Assembly (NCBI GenBank): GCA_964455675.1
Contig: CAYVYK010000005.1
Span: forward strand, 62,001-114,277
Source: an uncultured Methanosarcinales archaeon
Lineage (GTDB): Archaea > Nanobdellota > Nanobdellia > Woesearchaeales > CAYVYK01
Reading direction: 5' to 3'
DNA length: 52,277 nt
Below the pieces are notes generated by a model. It was not told the origin of the DNA. It searched no databases and saw only the letters and a program-made list of their open reading frames with translations. The translations under genes and the position numbers were made by a program. Below are positions 9,358-31,484 of this stretch, in pieces. Within the stretch, counting starts at the first letter, position 1. The number at the start of each line of letters is the position of its first letter.

Positions 9358-9359
9358 GT

Positions 9360-10235: not shown

Positions 10236-10762
10236 TGCCAAGAGCGATAGTCCGTCCTCTTGATCTTGGGGATCTCGACCACATGATGGAGTGGGTGAAT
10301 GATCGAGAAGTCATTGGCAATTTTGCGAATTTTGCGACTCCTACGTCACGATCCCAGGAGCAGAAGTATCTCGAAAATCTTCTGAAAAGCGAGACGGACA
10401 AAGCTTTTACGATTGAGACCGAACAGGGTGACTATCTTGGGACCGTTGGCATTTATCAAATCCATTGGCCGGCGCGTTCGGGCAGGCTTGGCATCATTAT
10501 TGGCAAACCAGCTTTGCGAGGCAAGGGGTACGGCCAGAGTGCAATCAAGGATGTCCTACGATTGGCATTTGAACAGTATAACCTACATAAGGTTTGGCTC
10601 GTTGTCTTCGAGGAGAACGCGCGCAGTCGCCACGTGTACACCAAATGTGGATTTCGTGAAGAGGGAATCTTGCGGGATGAGTACTTCCATCAGGGAAAGT
10701 ACCACAATATGGTGCGGATGTCCATTCTTGATCGTGAATATTTTGCAGAGGTGAAGATATGA
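10232..10762 (+). CDS. GNAT (RimJ/RimL-type) N-acetyltransferase
   Basis: RGKGYG, LHKVWL.V...N, Y.KCGF.EEG.LR. Confidence 0.9.
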   Translation: MMPRAIVRPLDLGDLDHMMEWVNDREVIGNFANFATPTSRSQEQKYLENLLKSETDKAFTIETEQGDYLGTVGIYQIHWPARSGRLGIIIGKPALRGKGYGQSAIKDVLRLAFEQYNLHKVWLVVFEENARSRHVYTKCGFREEGILRDEYFHQGKYHNMVRMSILDREYFAEVKI

Positions 10763-12762: not shown

Positions 12763-12834
12763 GGATGCTTGTGCGTGACAGTCTTTTTTTCATCCATTTT
12801 TATGAATTAATGTATGAATCACTCAATGAAAGAC

Positions 12835-12855
12835 TTAGTGTAAAAAGTACAGGAT
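12835..12855 (+). promoter_or_regulatory. NrtR-type operator upstream of the second transcription unit
   Basis: TTAGTGT-aaaaagt-ACAGGAT. Confidence 0.6.
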
Positions 12856-12866
12856 GGTGAAAGAAC

Positions 12867-13316
12867 ATGGAGAGGAATCTCAAACCATACGGATGGCCGA
12901 TACCGACGACGGATATCATTATTGAGTACGAACAGCAGGGTAAGGCGGGGATAGTGCTCATTACAAGGAAGAATCCGCCTTACGGCATTGCGATTCCAGG
13001 TGGCGTTGCCGAGCTTGGGCTCACGCTTGAGGAGAACGCAGAGAAGGAAGCTCGCGAAGAAACCGGCCTTGTTGTCAGACTGAAAAATCCACAGCGGCCT
13101 TATGTGTACTCTTCCCCCACGCGCGACCCGCGCCATCATATGATCAGCAACACGTACATCGCCGTGGGGTCTGGTACCCTCTGCGCGGGAGATGACGCGG
13201 CCTCTGCAAATCTGTACACGCCTGAGGAGGTCCGAAGCCTTCTTGGTAAAGGCCTCTTTGCATTCGATCATGAGGATATTCTTCGTGATTACCTATCGAG
13301 AGGTGACGCGAGATGA
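12867..13316 (+). CDS. Nudix hydrolase (ADP-ribose pyrophosphatase-like)
   Basis: Nudix box, RDPR, AGDDA, FAFDH. Confidence 0.88.
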   Translation: MERNLKPYGWPIPTTDIIIEYEQQGKAGIVLITRKNPPYGIAIPGGVAELGLTLEENAEKEAREETGLVVRLKNPQRPYVYSSPTRDPRHHMISNTYIAVGSGTLCAGDDAASANLYTPEEVRSLLGKGLFAFDHEDILRDYLSRGDAR

Positions 13317-13924
13317 GCCTTGGGAGATGTGGGGTCGTCGGCAGATTCAAACCGCTGCATCTTGGCGGAGCTCGTATGCTCGATGCTGTCTGTGCGCAGG
13401 CAGATCATGTCATTATAGGGGTCGGGAGCTCCAACAAGTATAACCTTCGTAATCCCTTTACAGCAGATGAGTCTGAGGGTATGATCCGCGCATACTTATC
13501 TCCGAGATTTGCCAACTACTCCTTCATTCACATTCCTGACTATGGGCACATTCCAGAGTATCGCGATGGCCAGCGTTGGAAACGGCATGTTATCGAGGGG
13601 TATGGCAGCCTTGATTGTTTTGTCTCGGGTAACGCTTACGTGTCTGATCTCTTGCAGGATTCTTACCCCATCATCGATTCCCCATCTCTCATTCCGCGGG
13701 ATCAGTGGATCCGCTTGAAAGCGTCGGCAGTCCGAGTCGCGATGGCAAAAGGTGACGAGTGGAGGGGAATGGTTCCTCGCGAGGTTGCGGAGTATCTGGA
13801 TGATCATGCGCTTGTCGAGCGTTTCCGTCGAGAATTTGGTCTGGAGACTCTAGCTTCGAGCGTAGCAGATCCTTCACGCCCTGAATCCTTGCGCATGGAA
13901 CGTGATCACACGTATGAAAGGTGA
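13313..13924 (+). CDS. NadM-like nicotinamide-nucleotide adenylyltransferase
   Basis: GRFKPLHLG, IGVGS, RNPFT, ASAVR...W..MVP; the HxGH motif appears as HLGG. Confidence 0.8.
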   Translation: MSLGRCGVVGRFKPLHLGGARMLDAVCAQADHVIIGVGSSNKYNLRNPFTADESEGMIRAYLSPRFANYSFIHIPDYGHIPEYRDGQRWKRHVIEGYGSLDCFVSGNAYVSDLLQDSYPIIDSPSLIPRDQWIRLKASAVRVAMAKGDEWRGMVPREVAEYLDDHALVERFRREFGLETLASSVADPSRPESLRMERDHTYER

Positions 13925-13928
13925 AACG

Positions 13929-14690
13929 ATGCGAATAGGAAACTATGATATCGTACGGCAGATCGGTGAGGGTGGCTTTGGTCGGACGTACGAAGCACGC
14001 CACATCCTACTTGGGACGAGAGCCTGCATCAAGCAGAATTCGAACATAACGGACGACGACGCGAAACTCTTGATGGACGAGGCGCGGGTCCTTTGGGACG
14101 TGCATCACCACTCCCTTCCCTCAATGCATGATTTCTATCGCGCTCCTGACGGAAGCTACATCATGGTCATGAGTTTTGTGGAAGGCAAGAACCTTGAGGA
14201 TATCGTGAAGAAGCATAAGGCAATTCATCCTGAGGATGTATCATGGGTAACGCAGCGCCTCCTCAATGCGCTCCACTATCTTCATGCATCTGGTGTGATT
14301 CACGGTGACGTGAAGCCTCCAAACGTGATTGTTCAGCCGCGTGTGCATAACGCGGTGCTTGTGGATTATGGCCTTGCCTCCGTCCGTCCGCGGAGCACGA
14401 CTAAGCCCATGGGTTACACAGCGATGTTTGCGGCTCCCGAGATACTCGACGGAAAACCTCCAATTCCTGAGTCTGATCTGTATTCGCTAGGCTTGACGAT
14501 GGTCTACACGCTTGGCGGCGATGTGGTTTCTAAAATAATGCCCGAAACGGTTCCTGCGCCCTTGCAGGAATTCTTTGCGGAACTCACTCGTTACAATCCT
14601 CTCGATCGTCCAAACTGGGACAAGTGCGATCTTGTTGCGAGGTTATCGGATATTCGCCAGGACGTGTTTGGGAGGAGGAGCACGAAATGA
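13929..14690 (+). CDS. Hanks-type Ser/Thr protein kinase (kinase domain only)
   Basis: GEGGFG, HGDVKPPN, DYG, APE, SDLYSLG. Confidence 0.93.
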   Translation: MRIGNYDIVRQIGEGGFGRTYEARHILLGTRACIKQNSNITDDDAKLLMDEARVLWDVHHHSLPSMHDFYRAPDGSYIMVMSFVEGKNLEDIVKKHKAIHPEDVSWVTQRLLNALHYLHASGVIHGDVKPPNVIVQPRVHNAVLVDYGLASVRPRSTTKPMGYTAMFAAPEILDGKPPIPESDLYSLGLTMVYTLGGDVVSKIMPETVPAPLQEFFAELTRYNPLDRPNWDKCDLVARLSDIRQDVFGRRSTK

Positions 14691-14755
14691 TGGAAGGATG
14701 ATGGTTGATAGGTGATTGTTCAGCAACGACATGAAGATGGTTGGAGGTGAAGACC

Positions 14756-15730
14756 ATGTACAGTTGGGGAGATGATACAAAAGAGTGGAAGAATCCTGGA
14801 GCGTTCAAGTATGATGACGCAAAGAAGGGTTATTTAGAAAAACTAGCCGCAGAGGCGACGGAAAAAGGGCCGAGAACCTACCTTACGAAGAAACAACCGA
14901 ACATGAAGATCGTTGATCCGCTCGGTAAGGATATCAGCACGGATAGTAAGAATCCTGTGATTGTTGCAGTGGATGGCACAGGTTCGATGCAGCAGTGGCC
15001 TGCAGGCATTTTTGACCGTTTGCCCTTGCTCTATCAAACGCTCTCGCAATGGCGGGATGATGTTGAGCTTTCGTTTGCGGTTATTGGGGATGCGAACGGC
15101 CCCGATAAGTGGCCTGTGCAAATGACCCCGTTTGGCAAAGGCGTTGTGCTCGATGATTATCTGAAGGCCTTGCATGCGGAGGGTAAAGGTGGCCCCGGAA
15201 TCCGTGAAAGCTATGAGCTCTGGGCGTACTTTGTTAAGGAACATGTGAGGACGCCGAACGCAAAAGCCCCATTCTTGTTTGTTATGGGTGACGAGATGTT
15301 CTACAACCAGGTGAATCCTGAACAAGTGCAGCAGCATTTCGGTGGTGGCCTGCAGGAACCTGTAAGTTCGGTGGATGTCTGGAAATCCCTTGCAGAGCAT
15401 TATGACATTCGCTTCCTGCGAAAGTCCTATGACGGCCATGATGCAAGAATCAGGGATCAATGGGGTTCTGCCATTGGTGTTGATCATATCGTCGACGTTC
15501 CGACGCCCCAGGACATGAACGATCTGCGTATCGTTGATATCGCGATGGGCATTGTGGCGAAGGACTGGGGGAAATTCTCTCAATACCAGAAGAGCCTTGC
15601 TGCGCGTCAGGATGGCAAGAGTATCAAGACCGTGATGGACTCATTGCGTGCTGCATCAGTTGCAGGGACGATGAAATCGACATATGCGGGAAAGGAAGGA
15701 CCAAAGAGCGAAAGCCTAACGGAGGTGTGA
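14756..15730 (+). CDS. vWA-domain protein
   Basis: MIDAS-like VDGTGSM, IGD, ESYEL, FVMGDE. Confidence 0.75.
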   Translation: MYSWGDDTKEWKNPGAFKYDDAKKGYLEKLAAEATEKGPRTYLTKKQPNMKIVDPLGKDISTDSKNPVIVAVDGTGSMQQWPAGIFDRLPLLYQTLSQWRDDVELSFAVIGDANGPDKWPVQMTPFGKGVVLDDYLKALHAEGKGGPGIRESYELWAYFVKEHVRTPNAKAPFLFVMGDEMFYNQVNPEQVQQHFGGGLQEPVSSVDVWKSLAEHYDIRFLRKSYDGHDARIRDQWGSAIGVDHIVDVPTPQDMNDLRIVDIAMGIVAKDWGKFSQYQKSLAARQDGKSIKTVMDSLRAASVAGTMKSTYAGKEGPKSESLTEV

Positions 15731-16605
15731 GTATGGGGATGTCAAAAGCGTACAAGAGCAGTGGCGCGGTGTTTGAGCAGGTAAGCATGCGCTATCAACC
15801 GCAGCTACTCGAGCGTCTGCGGGCGGTGGGTGGTAAGGATATCGTCGTCGTGCAGGGAACCTATGACCACATGGAAAAATTGCTCGACACAATCAGGGTT
15901 CCCTATACCTTGATCGGTTCTGAAGATGTTGCTGGCCATAATGGAGGACGTGTGATGTTCGTGAACTGCAAAGCGTATGACACGGGCGCGCCTGTTGCCG
16001 CTGTTAAGGGATTTGTCGAGGCTGGCGGTCGCCTGGTAACAACAGACTGGGCTCTAGGATTGACCGCGAAGGCGTTTCCCCATCGGTTGGCGAAGGTGGG
16101 ACAGACGCCGGACGACGTGATCGAGATCCAGTGCCATTCGGATCTTGCACGACGTTTTGTGGGAATGAATTATGCGCAGTGTTCGCCAAAGTGGTGGCTT
16201 GAAGGTAGTAGCCACGTGTACACCATAAAGGACGGCGTGACTCCGATCATTCTCTCGGAGGAAATGAAGGAAAAGTATGGATCGCCGTATGTGGCGGTTG
16301 GTTTTCCTGCAGGCCGTGGCGAGGTGTTTCACTTCATCAGCCATCTGGAATTGCAGCGCACGCATCTTCGTAGCAAAGCTGACAAGGGAAGCCTTGATGA
16401 TTACCTAGCAAAGATGAAGATCGAGCGCACGGATGAGATGGAGGACGCGCACGTTGCGGAATTGGAGGCTGCGTTTAGCACACTGAACACGCTCGCGTAC
16501 TTGTGCCTGCCAACGCCTCTGCTTAACCAGGGCATGAATAGCGTGACAATGGACGTGCATGCGGCAGATCCATCAAAAACCATGAAGAGTGTGAAGCTCG
16601 CATGA
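15727..16605 (+). CDS. Hypothetical protein, class I glutamine amidotransferase-like fold
   Basis: FVNC...FVEAGGRLVTTDWA and G.VFHF.SH pattern; translationally coupled. Confidence 0.55.
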   Translation: MSMGMSKAYKSSGAVFEQVSMRYQPQLLERLRAVGGKDIVVVQGTYDHMEKLLDTIRVPYTLIGSEDVAGHNGGRVMFVNCKAYDTGAPVAAVKGFVEAGGRLVTTDWALGLTAKAFPHRLAKVGQTPDDVIEIQCHSDLARRFVGMNYAQCSPKWWLEGSSHVYTIKDGVTPIILSEEMKEKYGSPYVAVGFPAGRGEVFHFISHLELQRTHLRSKADKGSLDDYLAKMKIERTDEMEDAHVAELEAAFSTLNTLAYLCLPTPLLNQGMNSVTMDVHAADPSKTMKSVKLA

Positions 16606-17498
16606 GCGGCGCAATCGTGACCATCCCGCCATACGCTCCGTTTATCCGAGAGGTCGCCCTTCATCCGATGGTTACGGGACTGCGCTTGAACACGGTTATG
16701 CCGACGAAGGGCGGCCTTGAGGATCTTTTACGGCGGCTCAAGCATGATACCTTGGACAAGGATCTCTGGATTGATTTAAAATGCCGTCAGCTTCGGGTGA
16801 AAACGTTTGGGGTTCCTCCGTTCACTGAAATTGAGCTTACGCATAGGATTACTGTTGAAACACCGGTGACCGCGTACTTTAGCGATGGCCGAGAATACGC
16901 GACCGTTCTTGAAGTGGATGGCAACCGCTTGATCATGCAGGAAGGCCCAGGTCGTGTCGTTGGTCCTGGTGAGGCGGTGAATATTCCCCACCCTTCACTC
17001 AGGGTTGAGGGGTATCTCACTGACCTTGACAAGGCATACCTTGAGGCGGGGCAAAAGGTCGGCATCAGGAATTACATGCTCTCATTCGTCGAGAGCCCGT
17101 ATGATGTCCAAAGCGTGCAGAACTTGTGTAGTGACGCAAATCTTGTAGCCAAGATTGAGTCTCGTCATGGACTTGCCTACGTTGCTCATCAGTGGAAAGG
17201 GGAAGCTAGGCTCATGGCCGCGCGAGGCGATCTTTACGTCGAGGTCGGCATGCCCCATGAGATCATCCCAGCCATGGAAAGTATCATCGGGAAGGATAAG
17301 AATGCCATTGCTGCGTCGAGAATTCTTACGAGCCTATCTCGTTCTCCCGAGCCCTCATCTCCTGACATCAGCGATGTGGATAGCCTCATGCGAATGGGCT
17401 ATCGAACGCTCATGCTCGGTGATGATGTCTGCATGCGTAGGGAATCGGTCATCAGCGCGCTGAATGTACTGGACGCGATGTGTGGGAGGTATGTCTGA
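16602..17498 (+). CDS. Pyruvate-kinase-like protein (barrel and B domain only, 298 aa)
   Basis: LRLN, DLKCRQLR, SFVES, AKIES and MAARGDL; no C-terminal alpha/beta domain. Confidence 0.85.
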   Translation: MSGAIVTIPPYAPFIREVALHPMVTGLRLNTVMPTKGGLEDLLRRLKHDTLDKDLWIDLKCRQLRVKTFGVPPFTEIELTHRITVETPVTAYFSDGREYATVLEVDGNRLIMQEGPGRVVGPGEAVNIPHPSLRVEGYLTDLDKAYLEAGQKVGIRNYMLSFVESPYDVQSVQNLCSDANLVAKIESRHGLAYVAHQWKGEARLMAARGDLYVEVGMPHEIIPAMESIIGKDKNAIAASRILTSLSRSPEPSSPDISDVDSLMRMGYRTLMLGDDVCMRRESVISALNVLDAMCGRYV

Positions 17499-17500
17499 TG

Positions 17501-17878
17501 TTAAGAAACGTAGCGGTGCGCTTCGGCAATTTTGTCAGTGATATCTCCCCTCCATCCGACCATAACCGCTGGTCTATGGCCTTCTCTGACGAGGTATGGA
17601 ATAACGCGAGCGGGAATCGAGTCGCCTTCCGGGCAAAAAACGACGGTCGGGATGCTGTGTTCGTCATGCAGTCGAAGGACCGCATCGAGGTACAGGCCAT
17701 TTCGGACAACGATAAGGTCTGTGTCGCAGGGATTAAGGCTGATGAATGCAAGCGCTTCAGCTGCCCTTCCTCTTCCTGGATTGAATACTCTCGGATAATG
17801 CTCGCGCACAGCGTCAACAAGCGGCTTGTTACCATAGATCGCAGAATCCACGACAACTGCCCATTTATCAGTATTCAT
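17501..17878 (-). CDS. Hypothetical protein, possibly a degenerate CheY-like receiver
   Basis: AVVVD, DLIVV and IPTVVF strand pattern; fills the intergenic space. Confidence 0.45.
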   Translation of the reverse strand: MNTDKWAVVVDSAIYGNKPLVDAVREHYPRVFNPGRGRAAEALAFISLNPCDTDLIVVRNGLYLDAVLRLHDEHSIPTVVFCPEGDSIPARVIPYLVREGHRPAVMVGWRGDITDKIAEAHRYVS

Positions 17879-17943
17879 GGACTGATAGGGTTCAATTCAC
17901 ATTTAAAAAACCGTATGGTCCCTAATCCTCGGAGGCAGCCTGC

Positions 17944-18759
17944 ATGAGATACCTGCTTGATACTGATATTGGCTCAGATATTGATGACGCTCTCGCACTG
18001 CTCTATGCAGCATCGCAAGGGCTCCAATTTGATCTGATTACGACGGTGCATGGTGATACTGCGTGCCGTGCGCGTATTGCACGGAAGCTGTGCGATCTGG
18101 TTCGCTATGATGCGCCTGTTGTCGCAGGAGAAAGTGTGCCTCTGCGGCAGACGCATATCTACGCAACAGGGCTTGAGGGTAAAGGTTTTGTCAATGCAAG
18201 GACTCGCGTGCCAACTCATGGAGTTGATGCCCTCATAGAAGAAATCATGGCAAACAAGCATGATGTTACCATCGCCGCTATCGGTCCATTGACGAATCTT
18301 GCTCGCGTCTTTGAGCGGCATCCAAAGATTGCATCCTACATTTCTGGTATTTATATGATGGGGAATGCCATTCTCACACCAAAAACCTATTATGTGAATT
18401 ACCGTTCGCACAATTTCAAAGTAGATCCTGAAGCTGTTGATATCGTGATGGGTGCTGATGTGCCAAAGACGATTATTACTACGGAAGTCGCAAAGAAATC
18501 CGCGCTCTCGAGGGCGGTTATCCAAGCACTTGGCAGGAAGCACAACCCTGCATTCAAGTATGTGCGTAATGCTGGTATCGCGTGGATGGATTTCATCAAG
18601 TATTCAGACTGCTATCTGTATGATCCTCTCGTCGTGCACCATCTTATGGATGATGCGATAACAGCGAAGAAAACGTACGGGAATGTGCGTATAACCACAG
18701 GCGTCGATCCTGGATTTGCCGAGCATGTTGCGGGTGCGCTCAAGGGGTGGATCACATGA
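17944..18759 (+). CDS. Inosine/uridine-preferring nucleoside hydrolase
   Basis: DTDIGSDIDDALA, IGPLTNLA, N...DPEA, YDP. Confidence 0.92.
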   Translation: MRYLLDTDIGSDIDDALALLYAASQGLQFDLITTVHGDTACRARIARKLCDLVRYDAPVVAGESVPLRQTHIYATGLEGKGFVNARTRVPTHGVDALIEEIMANKHDVTIAAIGPLTNLARVFERHPKIASYISGIYMMGNAILTPKTYYVNYRSHNFKVDPEAVDIVMGADVPKTIITTEVAKKSALSRAVIQALGRKHNPAFKYVRNAGIAWMDFIKYSDCYLYDPLVVHHLMDDAITAKKTYGNVRITTGVDPGFAEHVAGALKGWIT

Positions 18760-19607
18760 AGAATGTCCTCGTTGTTTTCAAGAAAAGCGCGTATGAGTTA
18801 TACATGAATTCGCCGGATGAGGAGGTTCAGGAATTCATGCGCACAAAGGAGCAGGATGTTGCGTCCATGAAGCGTAGCCATGATGAGCAGAAGCGAACGC
18901 TCGATGTCGTGACGAATGAGTTAATGCGTACTGGTGTGCACGTTGATACGATCTATCGGGCGGATCTGTCGCCCATCCTTGATCGCGATCTCGTTGTATC
19001 CGTTGGTGGAGACGGGACCTTCCTTGAGGTGGCTCATTATGTTGATACCGTTCCGATTCTTGGAGTCAATTCTAGTCCTGGGAGCAGCGTGGGGTTCTAT
19101 TGTTGTTCAAACGCTGATACCTTTTCAAGGGTATTGGATTCGTTTGGTGACATGCCGCGCACACATGCAGAGCGACTCGCGCTCCGTATAGACGGTAAAA
19201 TCGTTCCAGAACTTGTGCTCAATGATGTGCTCTATGCCCATCCAAATCCTGCAGCGATGTCCCGCTATCAGCTGAGAATTGATGATGCTCCGCAGGTTCA
19301 GTTGCGGGACAGCGGGCTTCTTGTTTGCACCGCGGTTGGTTCTTCCGCGTGGATGTATAATGAGGGAGGGGAAGAAATGCCCATTGAATCCGAGCTTCTT
19401 CAGTATCGTCAGCGTGGAATGAGAAGTCCCCTGCACGGATACGCCTCCGCGCTTGATCTGAGATCCATCACACGCGAAGGTAGACTGTATATTGATGGTC
19501 AGCATCTCACGTATGCTCTTGGTCTTGGATCCACCGTTTCATTTCGCAGAGGAAAACCTCTGACGATCATCGGAGATATTGCAGAGAAAAGATCTCATAA
19601 TTCCTGA
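18756..19607 (+). CDS. nadK: NAD kinase
   Basis: GGDGTFL, LGVN, LND, GLLVCTAVGSSAW. Confidence 0.9.
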   Translation: MKNVLVVFKKSAYELYMNSPDEEVQEFMRTKEQDVASMKRSHDEQKRTLDVVTNELMRTGVHVDTIYRADLSPILDRDLVVSVGGDGTFLEVAHYVDTVPILGVNSSPGSSVGFYCCSNADTFSRVLDSFGDMPRTHAERLALRIDGKIVPELVLNDVLYAHPNPAAMSRYQLRIDDAPQVQLRDSGLLVCTAVGSSAWMYNEGGEEMPIESELLQYRQRGMRSPLHGYASALDLRSITREGRLYIDGQHLTYALGLGSTVSFRRGKPLTIIGDIAEKRSHNS

Positions 19608-21911: not shown

Positions 21912-23129
21912 CTAGCGAAGGCCCAAGAAAAACAGCATGACGGGAACGAGAATGCACGCCATGGTGTTTGATCGCTTTACTCCGACGAGAGGAGCGAGGA
22001 GTCCGACAGCTGTTGATGTGATGAGTACAAGGAGTCCAGGCAGTCCACAGAGGAGTATTGCGAGTACTGTCACAAATGACATGATCGCAATGCACACGCG
22101 CTGATAGTTGATCTTGCTCATGATGTTTGCAAATACCCTGGCAAGCGATAGCGTGATGAACGCAGCTATTCCTCCCGTTATGGCGCAGACGGCGAGCAGT
22201 GTCCACAGATCGTGCAGGCTGATGTGCGCGGTGAGTTCTTGCAGTGCGACGATCGCCCCGTTGCGCGGTTTGTCAAGCGCATAGAATGCGCCTAGTCCGA
22301 AGACAAAATTTGATGTGCTGATACCGCCAGTAAGTATGAGAAATCCGTACTCACCGAGTCCTCCAATAAGATACAGGCAGACTGTTGCGGCTGTTGAGCT
22401 GCCGACTCCGGGGAGCATGCCGACGAGCGAGCCGCTGAATACCGAGCCCGCTATCGCTTTGATCTGCGCGATCGGCGAAATCTTGAGTGATGCGGATGTT
22501 TCTTGTGGTGGGATCTTCATTTCTTCGTCGAGAGCCGTGATAAGTGTTGATATTCCAAACAGTCCTGAGAGGAGCGGAAAGAGCGGCTGTTCGAGCCGTT
22601 CAAAATCAAGCACAATGTACCCAAGCACTCCGGACAGAAGGATGACGAATAATCCCCACACTTTTTTCCCCCATCCTCGTTCCGTGAGGACCATGAAAGA
22701 GAGAACCCAAAGGAGGATGATTCCCATGAGCGGGGAGATGCTGTCATACACTCGTTCGAGGAACGGAATGACCGCCGGGATAATCGCAATCGTCAGGATG
22801 AGCGCGCAAAGACTGCCAAGGACAGTCAGGTAGACTGCTTCGTATCCTTTTCCTTTGAGGAGGAGCTTATGGCCTGGCAGTACGTTCAGTACGGTTGCCT
22901 CATTGGGGGCTCCAAGGAAGATGCTTGGCACAGCATCGACAAATGAGTGCGTGACCCCCATCGAGATGATGAACGCTCCAAGCTCAAGAGGTTGCGTGTA
23001 TTTCAGGAGAATTCCCGACATGCTGACGAGCAGCACGCTCACGAGATTGATATGCACGCCGGGAGTGAGGCCTGTGATAATTCCGCAGAGGATTCCAAGG
23101 ATGGTGGCAAGGAGGAGTGCGATGAACAC
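21912..23129 (-). CDS. Tripartite tricarboxylate transporter TctA family (archaeal DUF112 type)
   Basis: GLTPGVHIN, PSIFLGAP, VLPGH..L..G.G, GVKRS; start set at GTG 23129. Confidence 0.88.
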   Translation of the reverse strand: MFIALLLATILGILCGIITGLTPGVHINLVSVLLVSMSGILLKYTQPLELGAFIISMGVTHSFVDAVPSIFLGAPNEATVLNVLPGHKLLLKGKGYEAVYLTVLGSLCALILTIAIIPAVIPFLERVYDSISPLMGIILLWVLSFMVLTERGWGKKVWGLFVILLSGVLGYIVLDFERLEQPLFPLLSGLFGISTLITALDEEMKIPPQETSASLKISPIAQIKAIAGSVFSGSLVGMLPGVGSSTAATVCLYLIGGLGEYGFLILTGGISTSNFVFGLGAFYALDKPRNGAIVALQELTAHISLHDLWTLLAVCAITGGIAAFITLSLARVFANIMSKINYQRVCIAIMSFVTVLAILLCGLPGLLVLITSTAVGLLAPLVGVKRSNTMACILVPVMLFFLGLR

Positions 23130-23225
23130 GCGTACATGTCGCCAGGTATCCTTCTTATTCCTTTGACCATTTTGTCCGCAAATATTTCGCAATGCTTCAC
23201 TAATATTTACTATATAGTAAACAAT

Positions 23226-23265
23226 AAAGAAAAAAAGGAAGGCGATCCTTGCGGGATGGCCTTCC
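23226..23265 (-). terminator. Intrinsic terminator closing the stem-loop array transcript
   Basis: Minus strand GGAAGGCCATCCC-GCAA-GGATCGCCTTCC followed by TTTTTTTCTTT. Confidence 0.85.
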
Positions 23266-23270
23266 AGAGA

Positions 23271-23961
23271 GTGGCGGACATATGACTCAGAGGGTGAATC
23301 CTCGCGATTGTCCGCCACGTTGGTGTCAAATGCCCCGCACATTGTCGATATTGCGGATTTCGGGGTATACGGGGCAGCGTTGTGTATTATGCGGCACGCA
23401 CCTCCAGTTTTGAGAGGAGAACTACGATTACGCACCGCGAGTATGTCAGAGTGGCGGACACGCGACGGGTTAAGGTAACTTCGGCTTATGGCCGCCACGT
23501 TGGTGTCTGTTGCCCCACACACCTCTCATATTTAGATGCTGTATGTAGTGGGGCAACGTTGTGCGGCGCGTATGTTGACGGTTTAATCCATCCGAGCTTT
23601 GGCGCGCCGCGTGTATGTCGGAGTGGCGGGCACCTGGGGTACAGTGTGTCATAGTAATCTATGTCCGCCACGTTAATGTCTGCTGCCCCACATCACCGGC
23701 GTTGTGTTTACGAATTCGACAGTGGGGCAGCGTTGTGCGGCGCGCAGTAACTCAGAAGACTGTACCGCTTGTTTTGCGCGCCGCGTGTATGTCTTGTGGC
23801 GGTTAGTCCCGGTATTCTGTAAACGTAATGAAAAAACCGCCACGTTGGTGTCTGTTGCCCCACACGGCCTCGTCAACCAGAGTAACACATTTGTGGGGCA
23901 GATGGTATGTTGTGCGGCGCGCAACTCCACTTAATCTGTTAGGACACCAATTGCGCGCCGC
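23271..23961 (-). repeat. Stem-loop guide-like array, downstream of the Tas-like gene (12 hairpins, A-B-C x4)
   Basis: Stems GTGGCGGA/TCCGCCAC, TGCCCCAC/GTGGGGCA and GCGGCGCG/CGCGCCGC close 27-29-nt unique loops; A stems at 23271, 23451, 23623, 23796. Confidence 0.92.
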
Positions 23962-24026
23962 GTGCGTGACTGGAGAATTCCAGGATGATTCCGGAGCGGT
24001 CGCGCAGTGCACGCCGCTCGTTGAGA

Positions 24027-25757
24027 TTACACGGTCACGAGCTGCTGCTCGTCGATGCGCTTCCACTCTTTGAACAACCACGTGGCGAATTCGCCGAGCA
24101 TGTACCAGATCGCTTGCCTGCGGATGTGGCCGTCGGTGTACATCTCATGGTGGCCCTTGTCTGCGCAGTCAAACTTCTTCTTGTACAAGCGATACGGCGC
24201 GGGGAGAAATGGCGGAGTCTCGTTGGGGAACGGATGCCGGTAGCGTATACCGCGATCATAGTCAATCACGTCATCCCGCATTGCGTCGCGCCATCCATTC
24301 TTCGCGCCGGGACTGCTGATCCTCTCGATGAACCGGTGCTCCCAGTCATGCGGTGCGCGCCATTGCTTCATGCTGTCCGGGAGCTTCCAGTGCTCATCAG
24401 CCTTCGTCGCAGAGCGCCAACCACGCTCTCTGGTTGAGTCCATAATCTCGAGCATGACGACGTTGCCGTCGTTCCAGCCGAACACGCGGTCGAGCCGTTC
24501 GAGGCGATACCCACGCGGTTGTGTGGGATCGTCATGCCGGCGCCATCCGCCGCGGAGCCAATGTCCATTATGTGCACTATCGTCGGGGATTTGCAGAATC
24601 TCAGCGCATTCCCTGCAAAGAATGTCCGGGCGCTGCGTTCTGAGCTCTGCGATCAGCTCGCGTAGTCGATCGCCCCACTGAGTTCCGGGTCGCTTGCTCG
24701 CTTGCATCGCGAGCTGGTAGAGGCTCTGGCGTGCGTCGCCGCTCCAGTTCGCGATCTTTCCAACCTGTCGGTGGGGGAAGCTTCCGTCAGCACGCGGGCG
24801 AACGCCACAGTAGGATGCGAACGCTGCCGCGTTCGGGAATCGCTTGATGTTCTGAACTGCCGCGATGAGGCCGCCTGCGATGCGGGGTCCAACGCCTGTG
24901 ATGCTCGAGAGCACTGCTGTATAGATCGCGGTTCCCTCGACGGCTTCCGCAAGCGCCTTGTAGCATTCGTCCTCGTCCGCCTGCAGGAGCGCGAGCCGCT
25001 CGTTATTGGCGACAGCCGCCTCGCATGCATCGAGGATGCTGCCCTCCGGGTAGTATCCCTCCTCGTTCATGAAGATGCGCCCGTTGAAGCGCTGCCGCAG
25101 CCGTTGTTGGCATGCGATACGGGACTTCATGGCGTCCATACGATCCTGGAAACGTGCACTCACGAGGATCAGGCTCCGCTCCACAGGATCTACCCGGTAA
25201 AAGATCTCGCGCTTCTCCTTGACGAGTGTTGCGAGCAGTTCATGATCGTCGTTCTTGTCGCGCGTGCCACGCTCTTCCTTGAGCCTTGCTGGCGGAATGC
25301 GGAAGATCTCAAATCCCTTCTGTTCGCCACATCGCGAGATGGCGAACGCGAGTGCATCGCCGCTGCCGCCGAGCACCATGCCGACGATATCATCCTTCTC
25401 GAGTCCTTCGAACCTGATCGGCACATGCGTGGCTATCTCGAAGTCGTGCTTGAATCCGAGTAGGATCTTGCGTGCGCGTTCGATCGGGCGCACGAACTTC
25501 TGAGGGTGTTGCGGCACTTCCTCCGCGCTGATGCCCTTCCACCGTACCTGGTAATCGCGAAAGTTCGCAAGTTCATCCTCTTCCGTGATCTCGCGATACT
25601 TCACGGGATGGATGCCGCGCACGAAATCGAGTTCTGCCTGCTCGTCCGGAAGGTCGAGGGTTTTTGTCTTCTCACCCTGGATGATGGTGACTTGCGTCGG
25701 CCGCGGCTTGCCTTCCGCTGTCATCTTCACCCTGTGCCTGATCCCGATGTGTCTCAC
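24027..25757 (-). CDS. IS110/TIGR-Tas-like Nop-domain protein with degenerate RuvC-like N-terminus and large insertion
   Basis: ITGVGPRIAGGLIAAVQNIKRFPNAAAFASYCG (IS110/Nop-like), DGSFP.R..G...NW, C-terminal GHIRRQA.WYM..F..WLFKEW; AGGAGG RBS. Confidence 0.85.
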   Translation of the reverse strand: MRHIGIRHRVKMTAEGKPRPTQVTIIQGEKTKTLDLPDEQAELDFVRGIHPVKYREITEEDELANFRDYQVRWKGISAEEVPQHPQKFVRPIERARKILLGFKHDFEIATHVPIRFEGLEKDDIVGMVLGGSGDALAFAISRCGEQKGFEIFRIPPARLKEERGTRDKNDDHELLATLVKEKREIFYRVDPVERSLILVSARFQDRMDAMKSRIACQQRLRQRFNGRIFMNEEGYYPEGSILDACEAAVANNERLALLQADEDECYKALAEAVEGTAIYTAVLSSITGVGPRIAGGLIAAVQNIKRFPNAAAFASYCGVRPRADGSFPHRQVGKIANWSGDARQSLYQLAMQASKRPGTQWGDRLRELIAELRTQRPDILCRECAEILQIPDDSAHNGHWLRGGWRRHDDPTQPRGYRLERLDRVFGWNDGNVVMLEIMDSTRERGWRSATKADEHWKLPDSMKQWRAPHDWEHRFIERISSPGAKNGWRDAMRDDVIDYDRGIRYRHPFPNETPPFLPAPYRLYKKKFDCADKGHHEMYTDGHIRRQAIWYMLGEFATWLFKEWKRIDEQQLVTV

Positions 25758-25819
25758 GTCTGTTCCTCCTTTTCATGAACCGTGTTGTATTGGGAAGCCG
25801 TCAGGCTTGAGTGTCATGT

Positions 25820-26467
25820 GCTGCCGTGCAACTCCCAAGGTTTAGATTACTTGAGCATCAGCACGGCAGCGTGTGACGGACAGACATGGCTCTGCTTGGA
25901 CGAGTCCTCTTGTCCGCCACGTTGGTGTCAAGCGCGCCCTGCAGTTGGATTCTTTGGTAAAACAGCCCTTCGAGCAGGACGCGTGGAATCTTGTGCGGCG
26001 CGCACTCACACTATTCTCTCAAGGACCTCATTGCGCGCCGCGTGTATGTCGTGTGGCGGACACGAGCGCAATTTATTTTGAGTCGCCTCGTAGTCCGCCA
26101 CGTTGGTGTCAAGCGCTGCTCCGCACCCTCACCATTGGGGTGTATCCACTTCACAGCGGAGCAGCGTGGGGTGTAAAGTGCGGCGCGGAGATCCTCGCAG
26201 GGAAAATGGGCTCCATTATGCGCCGCGTATGTGTCGTGTGGCGGACAATGCCAACTTATGAATGACTGGGACCCTTGTCCGCCACGTTAGTGTCAAGCGC
26301 TGCCCCACATTTCCTGGCGTGGAGTAAGACCATTCCCATTGTGGGGCAGCGTGTGTGTTGTGCGGCGCACAACCACCCATGTTGGTGAAAACTCCCTTGA
26401 GTGCGCCGCGTATATGTTGTGTGCGGACAGTCCCGGTACAGCGATGAACGTAATGATAGTCCGCCAT
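25820..26467 (-). repeat. Stem-loop guide-like array, upstream of the Tas-like gene (11 hairpins)
   Basis: Same three stem classes and linkers; A stems at 25873, 26053, 26238, 26421; loops 27-30 nt. Confidence 0.92.
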
Positions 26468-26892
26468 GTTCGTGTTAACGCATCGAGGGCAAGTCTTATT
26501 CGGGGGTGACTATTCTGACTTTGGAATGTACTCCGCAGGCTAGAGAAATCTGTTTCTTCCACCGACGAAAACGCGAGTTTTCTCGCATTTCCGCTCTTCT
26601 CCATTGTGTTTTCGAGACTGCCGATCCTGTTCATTCAGAGTATTGCTGCATGTGTGCTCGCAATAGCGAGGATGATTGATCGGTCGTGGTGTTGCGCGTT
26701 CTAGCGTTAGGTTTGTTAGGGTAAAATGAGTATCACGAATCGGTAGTGAATATTTAAAGGTTGTTGCGTTTTTTCAAGTCATGAAACGGATTCAATCCGT
26801 CGCCGTAACCCTTCAATAATTTACCACTACTAGATGATGAAAAAGCAAAGGTTTAAAAATCTGGACTACCTTCTCCGTTGCGGTGATACGTA

Positions 26893-27520: not shown

Positions 27521-28432
27521 ATGAGCACAGATCCCCAAGAATCCAGAGCGAAAACGTTTGGTATCCAGACCTATCGGGTGACTGAGGATCGGCTCTATGT
27601 GCCTCAGTTTTCTCCTAGCGAAGTTGAGGAACTTCTCATCGCGTATGAGGAGAGAATTCCCGTGGCGCTCATCGGTCCAACAGGTTGTGGGAAGACAACT
27701 CTTGTGGAAAAGCTTGCGTATATGATCGGCCAGATGCATCCCGAAAATCCGTACGCTGGTACGATCACAACGATCCTTGGGCAGGAGGACATGACCGCGA
27801 CGGAATTGCGCGGCGAGCCCATTCTTGGTCCTGGAGGAACAACCAATTTCCAAGAGGGTCCATTGACGATACGCGTGAAGTACGGTGGAATTTTTTATCT
27901 TGATGAGCTCCCCGAAGCCCGGCCTGGAACGCTGACGTCCGTTCACTCCGTGACTGATTATCGAAGGACGCTAACAATCCCTGAGCTTAAGCTCGTGTTC
28001 GAGGCTCCGGATGATTTTATGTTTATGACTTCTTGGAATCCTGGTCATCAGCAGCGAAGGATGAAGATTAGCACTCGCGATCGTTTTTATCCAATCAAAT
28101 TACGTTATCATCCGCCTGAGGTCGAGGCTGGAATCATCTCCCATTACGGTAAGGTGGATGAAGATACCGCGCTTTTAATCGCGCGTGTGGGTGCGCATGT
28201 TCGAGGGGGAACTCCTGATGGAAAGCCGTATCTTGGCCAGCGCGAACTTGGTACGAGGCGGTTGATTGATGCCGCAAAATTCATCCGCCGTGGAAGGCCT
28301 GTCAGGCTTACACTGCAGCGCCTCTCCGCAAGTGTTGATGCATCATCAACAGAAGACCAGCAGGCGCTCGATGAAGCCATTGATACACTCCTTTCGGATA
28401 TGGGTCTAGAGGAGTCAGATGGCGGAAGATAA
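27521..28432 (+). CDS. MoxR-family AAA+ ATPase (CbbQ/NirQ/NorQ type)
   Basis: GPTGCGKT, EDMTA.EL.G, YLDE, D.RR.L, SWNPG, ST.DRF, TRRLI. Confidence 0.92.
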   Translation: MSTDPQESRAKTFGIQTYRVTEDRLYVPQFSPSEVEELLIAYEERIPVALIGPTGCGKTTLVEKLAYMIGQMHPENPYAGTITTILGQEDMTATELRGEPILGPGGTTNFQEGPLTIRVKYGGIFYLDELPEARPGTLTSVHSVTDYRRTLTIPELKLVFEAPDDFMFMTSWNPGHQQRRMKISTRDRFYPIKLRYHPPEVEAGIISHYGKVDEDTALLIARVGAHVRGGTPDGKPYLGQRELGTRRLIDAAKFIRRGRPVRLTLQRLSASVDASSTEDQQALDEAIDTLLSDMGLEESDGGR

Positions 28433-31400
28433 TTCTGATTTGGAATCCCGTGTCAAGGTGAAACTTTCTGCACAATCAAATGCAATTCTTGCAGAGGTCA
28501 TGGCTAGGATAGGTGATCTTGCATTGAGGAGCGGTGGGAGGCTGGTTCCCGTCGCTCAGGTAGCGATCAAGCAACGTCGTAAGAACCTTCTCTATCTGCT
28601 TAATGATCTGCCCCATCTTACGGATCGTGAGCAGGAAGTCTATATCCGCCTTCAGGGTGACATGGCAAGTACTGCTGCCGGCGTATCTCAGAGCGATGAG
28701 CTTCATATGATCTACACCAAGTTCCCTTCGGATGTCCGGGAAATGGTCGCTCGTCATTTGGACATCCTGCAGATTTCGGGGCGATCTGCACACTACCTCT
28801 GCAAGAAGATGGTTGATGGTATAGACAAGGCGCATGGTATCGACCGTCTGAGGAATTCGCTCAACCTTACATTGCGAGGATTTGACGCCTATACCGATGC
28901 GTTTCCGAGGAGGGATTTGGATAGTGAACCGCGGTCTCAAAGAGCTTCGGAGCGGAGAACGTCGCTGTTAAAAACGGCGTATAAAACGTATCACTCCCTA
29001 CCTGTTAAGGTTGAGGAGTGGGAGAACGTTTTGCAGCTTCAGGATGTTTTGCATCAGTACTATTTCGGTCAGGTAAAAGAGTGGATGGCAAAAGAGGATC
29101 CGGTTATCGTATCAGAGACTATATCCAATATTTGGAGGACACGAGGTAATTTCCTGGAGAAGAATTCTGCTCTCGAGAACGTCATTTCATGGCAAGCCCT
29201 CGCAGGTGAATCCGACGGGGCATTACTGCCAATCCTCTGGCATGGTGTTATGAAAGCTCGTGGGGAGATCGTGCATGAATGGTACGATGCGTATCGGAGA
29301 AGGATTCAGTCTAATCCGCGCCGAGCATCCATCGCGCTCGAGCATCTCGCCGCAGTACCGCGTTTGCGAGACGAGGATGAGGTTACGCGAAGATTTCGCG
29401 CGGTCACGCTATTCCTGGACGGAAAAACCGAGGATTTCTGGCTGAGCACGGAAGTCCTCAGCAATCCGAACACTCCTGAGGAATTAAAGCCAGGTCTTGA
29501 TGGAATCGCATCACTTATGGAAAAAAGTTATCACCAGATCGGAAAGAGGTCTGCCCCATCCCGTGCCTGTGAAGAAGTATCTCGTCAGATCATCGGCGAT
29601 CTTCTGCTCCAGAATACGGAGTCTAGTCTGCGCATGATGAGGCTGCTCTCTGATTATGTTCCTCGGGCAGCAAAGCAAGCAGCGCGTGGGGGTAATCCTA
29701 CACTCGAATATATGCGCGCGCTCCGTTCGTTTGCTCAATCATTTTCCGATCTCGTCAACCTCCCTGAGGAACGCGCGCGTGAAGTGCTCGGTTTGACAAG
29801 CGCTCTTCGCTCGAAGGATACTGAACAGCTATCCCGTGATATGGTTCGAAGCGTGCATGACAGGTCTGGTTCTGCCAAACTTGATTCGGTGCGCAGAAAG
29901 CTTGAGTACTATGCGAACATGCTTGCGGGAACAGACGGTGGAATCTCTATCCAGCAGGGAGACATAATCGCTGCAGAATTCAATCCTGAACGGAGAACCA
30001 CGCTGATCTCCCTGCCAAAATCCATGGGCCATTTTTCGGCGGTAGGTGATAACGAGCGGCTGTACAAGGCATTCACCGCCATGTTTGCTGGCCACTTGAG
30101 GTATGCGACGGGCTATGACAAGGAACATGTGTATATCCCAGTTCTTGAGGTCGCCGCTCAGAAGGATAATCCAGAATTATTCCTGCTCGTGCTTGAGGTG
30201 CTTGAGGAGTCGCGCATCCGCTCGCGTTTAGAAGAGGAGTATCCAGGTTCTCGTCAAGACATCGAGCTCCTCTGTCAGTATTTGCTGCAGCGGAGCGAGA
30301 CAAGACGTGCTGATTTGAGCATACGTTCAGGCGATTTATCTTCACTCATTGAGAGGAGCCTTAAGAAGGACCAAGTTCCTGACAGGGTTGGCAAGGCAAT
30401 TGAGAGGGCTACTCATAGGGGTGCTATCTTCGCTGACGCTTTGGAAGCGGCCACAGAATACTATGAAAAAATAAATCCTAGCGATCGCAGGCTTGTTGAC
30501 GAGAAAGAACTTCGTGGTCTCACTGTTGGCGGGTACGCGTCCATCGATAAGATCATCAGCGCCATGGAACGTATCGCTCGCGAGATTCCGCAAGGCCGGA
30601 AATTTCGTTATCCCGAGTTTGACGAAAAAACAGGTCTTGTGATTCCCCAGGCTACCATCGTGACGGAGACTCCCGTACCAATGATCGAGTACACGCCAGA
30701 ACTTACCGTCGCTATCGATCCGCGAATGCTTGATGTGATGATGCAGCAGTTTGAGTTGCTCGCTCCTGAGGAGATCACTAGGCTTCGTGAACAGACACGC
30801 GGCAGACTTTCCTTGCGGGATCATGCGCGGTGGTTTGCGCACAAGGCCGCAGGATCCGCATCCTGCTACCCCAAGTTTTACACAGAGAAGCGCTATAGCA
30901 CGCGCGATGTGGCGGTTGCGGTCGCGATAGAGCTTTCAGGATCAACGAGAGATTTTCTCGGACGCAGCGAATTCAAGGTTGACTACATGAGGATTATTGC
31001 TGATCATCTTGTTCGCTGTATCCAAACGCTCGGTGATGATGTTGCGCTTTTTGCGTATAACGGGCGGGGTTCTGACACGATCCGGTGTACGCCCATCCTT
31101 TCCTTTGGCCAGATGTACGACGAGAATGCTCGCCGGGCTCTGCTCGCGGTTGATCCGCGGGATAACAATCGTGATGGCGCAGTCATCCGTCATGTCGGGG
31201 AATATCACCTTGCAGAGCATCCTGCTCACACCCGTATGCTTATTAATATCACTGATGGTGTTCCTCACGATTTAGGATATGATAATGGATATGGGCTTGC
31301 GGACATCAGGCATGCGTGTAAAAAGCTGCTTGACCGTCAGGTGTACGCAATGAGACTTGTTATTGATCCGAAATTGACAGGAGAGAAAGCGAGCGCCATG

Positions 31401-31484
31401 CAGGATGAGTTCACGACTGTTCTGCATGACTTCAAGCGCGCGATCTATGAGATTCCTTGGATATACTTTCAGAAAACAAGATAA
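28419..31484 (+). CDS. Large CbbO/NorD-like vWA protein
   Basis: YPEFD, C-terminal ELSGST, NRDGAVIRH, ITDGVPHD..Y. Confidence 0.85.
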   Translation: MAEDNSDLESRVKVKLSAQSNAILAEVMARIGDLALRSGGRLVPVAQVAIKQRRKNLLYLLNDLPHLTDREQEVYIRLQGDMASTAAGVSQSDELHMIYTKFPSDVREMVARHLDILQISGRSAHYLCKKMVDGIDKAHGIDRLRNSLNLTLRGFDAYTDAFPRRDLDSEPRSQRASERRTSLLKTAYKTYHSLPVKVEEWENVLQLQDVLHQYYFGQVKEWMAKEDPVIVSETISNIWRTRGNFLEKNSALENVISWQALAGESDGALLPILWHGVMKARGEIVHEWYDAYRRRIQSNPRRASIALEHLAAVPRLRDEDEVTRRFRAVTLFLDGKTEDFWLSTEVLSNPNTPEELKPGLDGIASLMEKSYHQIGKRSAPSRACEEVSRQIIGDLLLQNTESSLRMMRLLSDYVPRAAKQAARGGNPTLEYMRALRSFAQSFSDLVNLPEERAREVLGLTSALRSKDTEQLSRDMVRSVHDRSGSAKLDSVRRKLEYYANMLAGTDGGISIQQGDIIAAEFNPERRTTLISLPKSMGHFSAVGDNERLYKAFTAMFAGHLRYATGYDKEHVYIPVLEVAAQKDNPELFLLVLEVLEESRIRSRLEEEYPGSRQDIELLCQYLLQRSETRRADLSIRSGDLSSLIERSLKKDQVPDRVGKAIERATHRGAIFADALEAATEYYEKINPSDRRLVDEKELRGLTVGGYASIDKIISAMERIAREIPQGRKFRYPEFDEKTGLVIPQATIVTETPVPMIEYTPELTVAIDPRMLDVMMQQFELLAPEEITRLREQTRGRLSLRDHARWFAHKAAGSASCYPKFYTEKRYSTRDVAVAVAIELSGSTRDFLGRSEFKVDYMRIIADHLVRCIQTLGDDVALFAYNGRGSDTIRCTPILSFGQMYDENARRALLAVDPRDNNRDGAVIRHVGEYHLAEHPAHTRMLINITDGVPHDLGYDNGYGLADIRHACKKLLDRQVYAMRLVIDPKLTGEKASAMQDEFTTVLHDFKRAIYEIPWIYFQKTR

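What the first reader, a model, noticed from the sequence alone, without database searches (positions are those of the whole stretch)
23226..26467. Candidate RNA-guided system: IS110/TIGR-Tas-like Nop-domain gene flanked on both sides by 23 stem-loop guide units
Seen in sequence: 12 hairpins downstream (23271-23961) and 11 upstream (25820-26467) of a single 576-aa gene. Each hairpin is a GC-rich stem, then usually CA, a unique 27-30-nt loop (mostly 28), usually TG or AG, and the closing stem. A minus-strand intrinsic terminator (23226-23265) sits right after the last hairpin, and the gene is on the same strand. Established knowledge: IS110 bridge recombinases, TIGR-Tas and box C/D Nop5 share a guide-RNA-binding Nop domain, and stem-loop-type TIGR arrays have been described. 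Inference: a programmable nucleic-acid-targeting system with about 23 guides in a DPANN-type archaeon. It departs from the canonical TIGR I know (36-nt units, conserved loop repeat, smaller Tas) in unit size, in lacking a conserved internal loop repeat, in having arrays on both sides, and in protein architecture.
Basis: partly seen in the sequence, partly recalled or inferred. Interest (0 to 1): 0.95.

Follow-up and report, generated by a model that had tools for sequence, protein, structure and literature searches.

The report
Dead-TasR TIGR guide-RNA system in archaeon
The 23 hairpins and the gene between them are a TIGR-Tas system, a recently described RNA-guided DNA-binding system with a nuclease-dead protein, so this is a new example of a known kind, unusual mainly because it sits in an archaeal chromosome.

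Summary
On the minus strand, 11 hairpins (26467-25820) and 12 hairpins (23961-23271) flank a 576-aa gene (25757-24027), followed by a hairpin plus T-run (23265-23226). The stems covary and the loops are unique.

The protein passes NCBI's curated TIGR-Tas model. Its best solved-structure match is TIGR-TasR (9MTY), ahead of IS621. It is about 40% identical to two published nuclease-dead TasR loci: the Buchananbacteria contig of Faure 2025 and CsTasR of Xu 2026. It has the same replacements at the first two RuvC catalytic positions (R7, V128).

Each loop reads CA-N10-U-(5-8 nt)-(A/U)-N10-UG, that is, two 10-nt spacers. Two units share both spacers but not the linker.

Most likely it is an RNA-guided DNA binder and transcriptional repressor, by homology to CsTasR. 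No target was found.

What is unusual here:
- The host is an archaeon. None of 60 same-order genomes has the gene, and the locus G+C is foreign.
- There is no inner stem between the spacers.
- The protein has a unique 162-aa insertion.
- Three stem types alternate.

This scan has found the same kind before in CPR bacteria. Verdict: new member of a known kind, modest interest.

The parts
26750..26757 (-). Candidate archaeal TATA box (TTTAAATA), about 280 nt upstream of the first hairpin. It is a possible promoter of the whole unit.
   Evidence: Read in the sequence. This is inference only; no transcript data are available.
25820..26467 (-). Upstream stem-loop tigRNA array of 11 units, in the order A B C A B C A B C A C.
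25765..25770 (-). Shine-Dalgarno-like AGGAGG, 7 nt before the GTG start codon.
   Evidence: read in the sequence.
24027..25757 (-). tasR gene for a 576-aa nuclease-dead TasR. The domains are a RuvC-like domain (1 to about 185, with R7 and V128 at the first two catalytic positions), a coiled coil (about 191-274), a Nop/CTD region (about 277-380 and 540-576) and a unique insertion (about 378-539).
23271..23961 (-). Downstream stem-loop tigRNA array of 12 units, in the order B C A B C A B C A B C A.
23226..23265 (-). Hairpin followed by TTTTTTTCTTT, the likely end of the transcription unit.
   Evidence: Seen in the minimum-energy fold. Not flagged by the consensus scan.

Best explanation
This is a stem-loop TIGR-Tas system of the nuclease-dead TasR clade that is otherwise known from CPR (Patescibacteria) bacteria. 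Here it sits in the chromosome of an archaeon and was probably acquired by horizontal transfer.

Likely mechanism, step by step:
1. The two arrays and the gene are probably transcribed as one minus-strand unit (inferred).
2. The transcript is cut in the short conserved linkers into about 23 hairpin guides (inferred).
3. Each guide has a 9-11-bp stem closed by a CA/UG pair (box C and box D). It presents two 10-nt spacers separated by an invariant U, a 5-8-nt G-poor linker and an A/U (shown in the sequence).
4. A TasR dimer binds one guide. The two spacers pair with opposite strands of a DNA site of about 18-20 bp (by homology to TaTasR and CsTasR).
5. The first two RuvC catalytic positions are Arg and Val, so the complex binds without cutting and blocks transcription (by homology to CsTasR, shown experimentally by Xu 2026).

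The natural targets are unknown.
For: Protein identity:
- NCBIfam TIGR_Tas_endo scores 107.6 bits (cut-off 100), E 8.7e-31. The IS110 model scores 65.9 bits, below its cut-off of 140.
- The family profile against the PDB gives 9MTY (TIGR-TasR) at E 3.1e-29 and IS621 at 1.6e-5.
- The AlphaFold model has pLDDT 78.7, above 90 for residues 1-380 and 540-576. Its top Foldseek hits are 9MTY (8e-11), then IS621, ISCro4 and TasH.

Link to published loci:
- 59 related loci were found in genome contigs. L042 is the Buchananbacteria scaffold that Faure 2025 names as an inactivated-RuvC TasR. L041 is a Staskawiczbacteria locus.
- The L041 ORF is 547 aa from its Met, with R at 8 and V at 126, exactly as Xu 2026 reports for CsTasR.
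- P0001 is 39% identical to L042 over 383 aa (E 2e-86) and 40% identical to L041 over 318 aa (E 3e-70).
- P0001 has R7 and V128 at those positions. Across 47 family members position 7 is R in 45, and position 128 is never D or E.

Guides:
- Covarying stems.
- An invariant internal U and an invariant box-D U, each 23 of 23.
- The layout is N-N10-U-(5-8 nt)-(A/U)-N10-U.
- Units 1 and 14 share both 10-mers exactly, but their linkers differ.
- The type A stem (GTGGCGGAC../..GTCCGCCAC) also occurs in the CsTasR locus L041 and in L004.

Relatives have hairpins enriched on both sides of the gene.
Against: - No expression, processing or binding data exist for this locus.
- No spacer target was found. 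Whole loops gave no match beyond chance in the own genome. Cognate spacer pairs in tandem geometry gave 5 near-matches, against a mean of 2.15 (maximum 4) for non-cognate pairs.
- Two features reported for CsTasR guides are missing. An inner stem of at least 4 bp occurs in 1 of 27 detected hairpins here. A CUU motif occurs in only 4 of 21 linkers.
- In a six-frame genome search the same NCBIfam model scored this locus 98.8 bits, just under the cut-off.
- The 162-aa insertion is modelled with pLDDT below 50 and could change function.
- The gene is foreign to its host lineage, so it might not be functional there.
Confidence: 0.85

Rival explanations
1. A horizontally acquired relic. The locus is a TIGR-dTasR cassette that landed in the archaeon but does nothing there, being not expressed or not matched to archaeal transcription and processing.
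For: None of 60 same-order genomes has the gene. The locus G+C is 55-63% against about 50% in the flanks, and the gene is 59.7% against 49% for the genome. The RBS and terminator look bacterial. All 59 named relatives carry bacterial labels.
Against: The ORF is intact and keeps the family's invariant residues. 91.5% of stem cells still pair. Units 1 and 14 keep 20 of 20 spacer bases while the linker has changed. Both DNA runs hold a further unit with the same scaffold and other loops, which suggests array turnover.
Confidence: 0.08
2. An RNA-guided RNA-targeting or RNA-modifying system, an intermediate towards box C/D sRNPs. The spacers would pair with host RNAs such as rRNA.
For: The protein has the Nop-type fold. 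Faure 2025 speculated that this clade may be a step towards box C/D systems. The host has Nop5 and fibrillarin.
Against: Antisense matches of at least 9 nt between the 46 spacers and the 16S-23S region numbered 3, against 1.06 for shuffled spacers (maximum 5). Matches of at least 8 nt numbered 7 against 6.15. No Rfam family, box C/D included, matches the window. CsTasR was solved on dsDNA and represses transcription.
Confidence: 0.04
3. An IS110-family mobile element whose hairpins act as bridge-RNA-like loops for recombination.
For: Pfam finds only Transposase_20 (E 1.9e-12). PHROGs calls it a transposase. IS621 is a clear structural match.
Against: The IS110 curated model scores 65.9 bits, below its cut-off of 140. 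The first two RuvC catalytic positions are R and V. The gene is single-copy in the genome, and the stem motifs do not cluster anywhere else. TasR is a far better match than IS621, 3e-29 against 2e-5.
Confidence: 0.02

Closest known systems
CsTasR with its stem-loop TIGR arrays (Candidatus Staskawiczbacteria; Xu et al. 2026, bioRxiv 10.64898/2026.09.09.750476). It is the CPR clade of nuclease-dead TasR.
   Same: - About 40% identity.
- Arg and Val at the first two RuvC catalytic positions.
- A long segment between the first strands and the GGSG strand of RuvC: 97 aa here and 65-102 aa in the family.
- Arrays on both sides of the gene.
- Two 10-nt spacers.
- The stem sequence GTGGCGGAC/GTCCGCCAC is shared.
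- A short C-terminal tail after the last helix.
   Different: - The host is an archaeon.
- There is no 5-bp inner stem between the spacers.
- There is no 'insertion 1' after the RRF motif: 4 aa here, 82-102 aa in 15 of 47 members.
- There is a unique 162-aa segment before the last helix, against 2-57 aa in the other 46 members.
- CUU occurs in only 4 of 21 linkers.
Inactivated-RuvC TasR of Candidatus Buchananbacteria RIFCSPHIGHO2_02_FULL_56_16 scaffold_15087, and the 'stem arrays' of CPR bacteria (Faure et al. 2025, PMC12045711)
   Same: 39% identity over 383 aa. Hairpin units have CA/GACGA-type box C and UG/UGUC box D at the stem end.
   Different: In that locus the loops carry a conserved inner TGTC...GACGA pair. 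Here only a U and an A/U remain.
TaTasR (PDB 9MTY), the active dual-repeat TIGR-TasR
   Same: It is the best sequence and fold match among solved structures. The box C/box D logic is the same, CA and UG.
   Different: TaTasR is an active nuclease that uses 36-nt dual-repeat guides with 9-nt spacers. Here the RuvC is dead, the guides are hairpins of about 50 nt, and the protein is larger.
IS110/IS621 bridge recombinases
   Same: They share the RuvC-coiled-coil-Nop/Tnp fold and the Transposase_20 motif. Guide segments are presented in an RNA loop.
   Different: The protein is below the curated IS110 cut-off and its catalytic positions are replaced. It is single-copy. It has many one-loop guides instead of one two-loop bridge RNA.

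Membership tests
TIGR-Tas | Tas protein with the Nop-type RNA-binding domain | tested here: met
   NCBIfam NF052498 scores 107.6 bits against a cut-off of 100 on the protein. The six-frame genome search gave 98.8 bits. The profile matches 9MTY at 3.1e-29, and the Foldseek top hit is 9MTY.
TIGR-Tas | [quoted passage not shown] | tested here: met
   23 units have CA...UG at the stem end, N10 spacers and an invariant inner U. Units 1 and 14 share both spacers but not the linker. The inner box C' is only an A/U.
TIGR-Tas | Guides are expressed, processed and bound by the Tas dimer | not testable with these tools
   No RNA run is listed for this sequence.
Nuclease-dead TasR clade of CPR bacteria (CsTasR type) | RuvC-like domain with the canonical catalytic positions replaced (R8 and V126 in CsTasR) | tested here: met
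   P0001 has R7 and V128. The equivalence comes from the alignment with L041 and the text of Xu 2026.
Nuclease-dead TasR clade of CPR bacteria (CsTasR type) | Sequence membership in the clade | tested here: met
   E values of 1e-60 to 1e-90 to 47 homologues. 262 representatives score at E <= 1e-30. The protein is placed among CPR rows in the tree, but on a long branch (1.64) with weak support.
Nuclease-dead TasR clade of CPR bacteria (CsTasR type) | Inner stem or hairpin between the two spacers | tested here: not met
   1 of 27 detected hairpins has an inner stem of at least 4 bp. In 58 relatives' loci the share ranges from 0 to 86%, and some (L013, L059, L022, L031) also lack it.
Nuclease-dead TasR clade of CPR bacteria (CsTasR type) | CUU motif at the base of the stem (processing site) | tested here: not met
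   4 of 21 linkers hold CTT, 12 of 21 hold GACA, and 19 of 21 end in AC.
Nuclease-dead TasR clade of CPR bacteria (CsTasR type) | RNA-guided DNA binding and transcriptional repression without cleavage | not testable with these tools
   Inferred from CsTasR.
IS110 transposases | Curated family score, intact DEDD residues, and mobile multi-copy behaviour | tested here: not met
   65.9 bits against a cut-off of 140. R and V occupy the first two catalytic positions. There is one copy in the genome. The catalytic serine was not examined residue by residue.
Box C/D sRNP (Nop5-fibrillarin-L7Ae) | Pfam Nop domain match, box C/D sRNA models, and guides complementary to rRNA | tested here: not met
   The Pfam Nop model finds only the C1 gene in this genome. 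There is no Rfam match in the window. There is no excess of rRNA complementarity. 3PLA matches only at Foldseek E 0.57.

The most novel reading that the evidence does not exclude
A working TIGR-dTasR repressor that crossed domains, from CPR bacteria into the chromosome of a small-genome archaeon, and adapted there. Its guides have lost the inner stem. The protein has gained a 162-aa Trp-rich, Cys/His-bounded insertion found in no other member. The array is still turning over in the population. If so, dTasR repression works on archaeal transcription. It would also be a non-viral, non-CPR host with arrays, which Xu 2026 states is not known.
Probability: 0.25. Interest if true: 0.5.

Novelty: new member of a known kind. 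Interest (0 to 1): 0.3.

Why it matters
The kind of system is known and its closest relative has been characterised, so the locus adds no new mechanism.

It has modest value in three ways:
- It is a complete, well-bounded example in a 99%-complete archaeal genome. Published members of this clade are from CPR bacteria, and most TIGR loci lie on short metagenomic contigs.
- It shows a stripped-down guide (CA-N10-U-linker-A/U-N10-UG, with no inner stem) paired with an unusual protein insertion. This is a natural test of the proposed co-variation between Tas insertions and guide shape.
- The pair of units with identical spacers and the extra unit seen in the reads bear on the open question of how TIGR arrays gain spacers.

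Tried and rejected
- **Targets in the own genome.** blastn-short of the 23 loops gave a best hit of 15 nt at E 0.02, which is chance level for 23 queries. An exact 9+9 tandem search in four geometries gave 1 hit, unit 9 at C2:132032, where roughly 0.2 are expected by my estimate. With one mismatch allowed in one half, there were 5 cognate sites against 2.15 for non-cognate pairs, not significant.
- **rRNA complementarity.** No excess was found.
- **Virus or defence context.** Viral contigs held no relative: 33 pattern matches, 0 confirmed. PHROGs and PADLOC on 6 neighbouring ORFs gave nothing viral or defence-like beyond weak AAA ATPase hits.
- **Expression.** No RNA holder is listed.
- **The insertion (residues 375-545).** The ESM Atlas gave no usable hit. 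Pfam gave only a sub-threshold zinc-ribbon hint. AlphaFold gave pLDDT below 50.
- **Tree.** It is star-like and the query sits on a long branch, so no donor lineage can be named.
- **Supplements.** Those of Faure 2025 held as text (4 files, one cut when stored) name no DPANN-type host. bioRxiv supplements and TIGRSafari were not available, so I cannot say whether this locus is already catalogued.
- **Spacer scan of viral contigs.** I considered searching with the duplicated guide but did not run it. 18 specified bases with a variable gap would give several chance hits in a collection of that size (my estimate).
Full report
**What is there.** Read on the minus strand, the region holds, in order:
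- an array of 11 hairpins (26467-25820);
- an AGGAGG and a GTG start;
- a 576-aa ORF (25757-24027);
- an array of 12 hairpins (23961-23271);
- a hairpin followed by a T-run (23265-23226, seen in the fold).

The hairpins fall into three stem types that alternate in a fixed order, A B C, with a period of 170-185 nt. The linkers are short and conserved: 19 of 21 end in AC and 12 of 21 hold GACA.

**Is it more than chance?** Yes.
- There are 15 perfect hairpins in 1,339 nt of array, against 13 in the other 50,938 nt of the window. Shuffled arrays give a mean of 0.39.
- On the alignment of the 23 units, 91.5% of stem cells pair and 8 of 11 pairs show compensatory changes. None of 500 shuffles reaches the covariation score.
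- Some pairs are kept only as G.U on the minus-strand transcript. This argues for an RNA made from the strand of the gene.

**The protein.**
- Pfam sees only the IS110-type Transposase_20 motif. NCBI's curated model for the 'TIGR-Tas system RNA-guided endonuclease' is passed (107.6 bits, cut-off 100), while the IS110 model is not (65.9 against 140).
- In a six-frame genome search the same Tas model gave 98.8 bits, just under its cut-off.
- A profile of 47 homologues matches the solved TIGR-TasR 9MTY at E 3.1e-29 and IS621 at 1.6e-5.
- The AlphaFold model is confident for residues 1-380 and 540-576 and poor for 392-526. It finds 9MTY first, then IS621, ISCro4 and TasH; Nop5 structures appear only at E about 0.6.

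**Relatives.**
- The word-index search gave 47 homologues at 31-44% identity.
- The exhaustive search gave 557 representatives at E <= 0.001 and 262 at <= 1e-30. None of the best 150 is above 48% identical, apart from the protein's own copy.
- Of 59 loci in species genomes, 50 carry CPR/Patescibacteria labels, 5 'Gammaproteobacteria', 1 'Deltaproteobacteria' and 3 'uncultured bacterium'. None is archaeal.
- Two of these loci are published. L042 is the Buchananbacteria scaffold that Faure et al. 2025 name as a TasR with an inactivated RuvC.
- L041 encodes a 547-aa protein with R8 and V126. These are the length and the residues that Xu et al. 2026 report for CsTasR.
- P0001 is 39-40% identical to both and has R7 and V128 at the same places. 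In the family, position 7 is R in 45 of 47 members and position 128 is never acidic.
- The 59 loci have hairpins enriched on both sides of the gene: 3.6 and 2.9 per kb, against 0.8 per kb further away.

**The guides.** With the stem taken as 9-10 bp, the loop reads: one base, ten variable bases, a U, 5-8 G-poor bases, an A or U, ten variable bases, then a U that starts the 3' arm.
- The inner U and the box-D U are present in 23 of 23 aligned units.
- The stem ends in CA and restarts with UG. [quoted passage not shown]
- Units 1 and 14 share both 10-mers exactly while the linker between them is different. This is what one expects if the two ends of the loop are the working spacers.
- Relatives show the same plan with a conserved inner pair. 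Examples are GGACGA-N9-TGTCC-N5-8-GGACGA-N8-9-TTGTCC in L066, L004 and L042, and ACG-N9-10-TGT-T3-5-ACGA-N9-TGT in L013 and L059.
- Here the inner boxes are reduced to U and A/U, and an inner stem of at least 4 bp is seen in 1 of 27 detected hairpins. In relatives the share runs from 0 to 86%.
- The type A stem sequence also occurs in the CsTasR locus.

**How it most likely works.** The mechanism is taken from homology to TaTasR and CsTasR:
1. A TasR dimer holds one hairpin guide.
2. The two spacers pair with opposite strands of an 18-20-bp DNA site.
3. Because the RuvC site is dead, the complex binds and blocks transcription rather than cutting.

What is shown here is the identity of the protein, the replaced catalytic positions and the guide anatomy. 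Transcription as one unit, processing in the linkers, binding and repression are inferred.

**Targets.** None was found. Loops and cognate spacer pairs match the own genome no better than controls, and there is no excess of complementarity to rRNA. [quoted passage not shown]

**Host and origin.**
- The genome (1.72 Mb, 25 contigs, 99% complete) is archaeal by its SSU rRNA. It has a Nop5-fibrillarin pair elsewhere.
- The TctA-family gene next to the locus is found in 56 of 60 same-order genomes, at up to 53% identity. So the contig looks native.
- The AAA ATPase on the other side is found in 8 of 60.
- The tasR gene was found in 0 of 60 same-order genomes.
- The locus is 55-63% G+C in a background of about 50%.
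- No viral signature was found around it.
- The tree places the protein among CPR sequences, but on a long branch and with weak support. Transfer from a CPR bacterium is therefore likely but not shown.
[quoted passage not shown] I could not see their supplementary table.
- In a sample of 400 other genomes of the phylum, one (G246, same order) has a Tas protein above the cut-off. It is a different, 338-aa Tas with a classical dual-repeat array.

**What is particular to this locus.**
- The segment between the RPD motif and the last helix is 162 aa here, against 2-57 aa in the other 46 members. No listed representative aligns across it.
- That segment is Trp-rich, with three GWR motifs, and is bounded by CxxC and C..HH. 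It is modelled poorly.
- The three alternating stem types are a local pattern. L004 and L034 also show two or three alternating types, and an earlier finding of this scan judged such alternation a by-product of duplication.
- Both DNA runs, from one study, hold a 226-nt contig at about half the depth. It has the same arms and linkers but three other loops. This is an extra A-B-C block that the window lacks. It is either array variation in the population or a collapsed assembly.

**Verdict.** The system belongs to a kind described in 2025 and characterised in 2026, and this scan has met it several times in CPR genomes. It is a new member of a known kind.

Noticed in passing
L157 (G246:C2:2456-6193), positions about 1369-2385 and 2415-3480: Another genome of the same archaeal order carries a different TIGR system: a 338-aa Tas protein (156 bits to NF052498) followed by a classical dual-repeat array. 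The array alternates GAGCGAGCCA-type and GATGTTCA-type repeats with 9-nt spacers, for roughly 30 units.
   Followed up: partly
window 23664-23929 and 26019-26065 (runs X1, X2): Both DNA runs, from one study, hold a 226-nt contig at about half the depth of the main contigs. It has the array's arms and linkers but three different loops. This is an extra A-B-C block not present in the window.
   Followed up: partly
window 27521-31484: An AAA_5 (MoxR-like) ATPase gene is followed by a 1021-aa ORF with no family match, next to the TIGR locus. The ATPase was found in only 8 of 60 same-order genomes, so this flank looks like accessory DNA.
   Followed up: partly
window 7033-19607: A cluster of NAD salvage and synthesis genes: a Nudix-type NtrR-like regulator, nicotinate phosphoribosyltransferase, NAD synthase, NMN adenylyltransferase and NAD kinase. 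A Ser/Thr kinase and a nucleoside hydrolase lie among them.
   Followed up: no
window 21912-23522: The 536-aa ORF listed here runs into the downstream array only because of an upstream in-frame GTG. The TctA-family match starts near 23201, and an AT-rich TATA-like stretch lies at about 23200-23225.
   Followed up: partly
G000:C2:132032 (own genome): One exact 9+2+9 match to unit 9, in the geometry reverse complement of spacer A, then spacer B. It is within what chance allows, and its gene was not identified.
   Followed up: partly
window 24654-24716: A perfect 9-bp hairpin with a 45-nt loop lies inside the tasR coding sequence. It has no CA/UG boxes and is probably chance, though intragenic tigRNAs are reported in other TIGR systems.
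   Followed up: no
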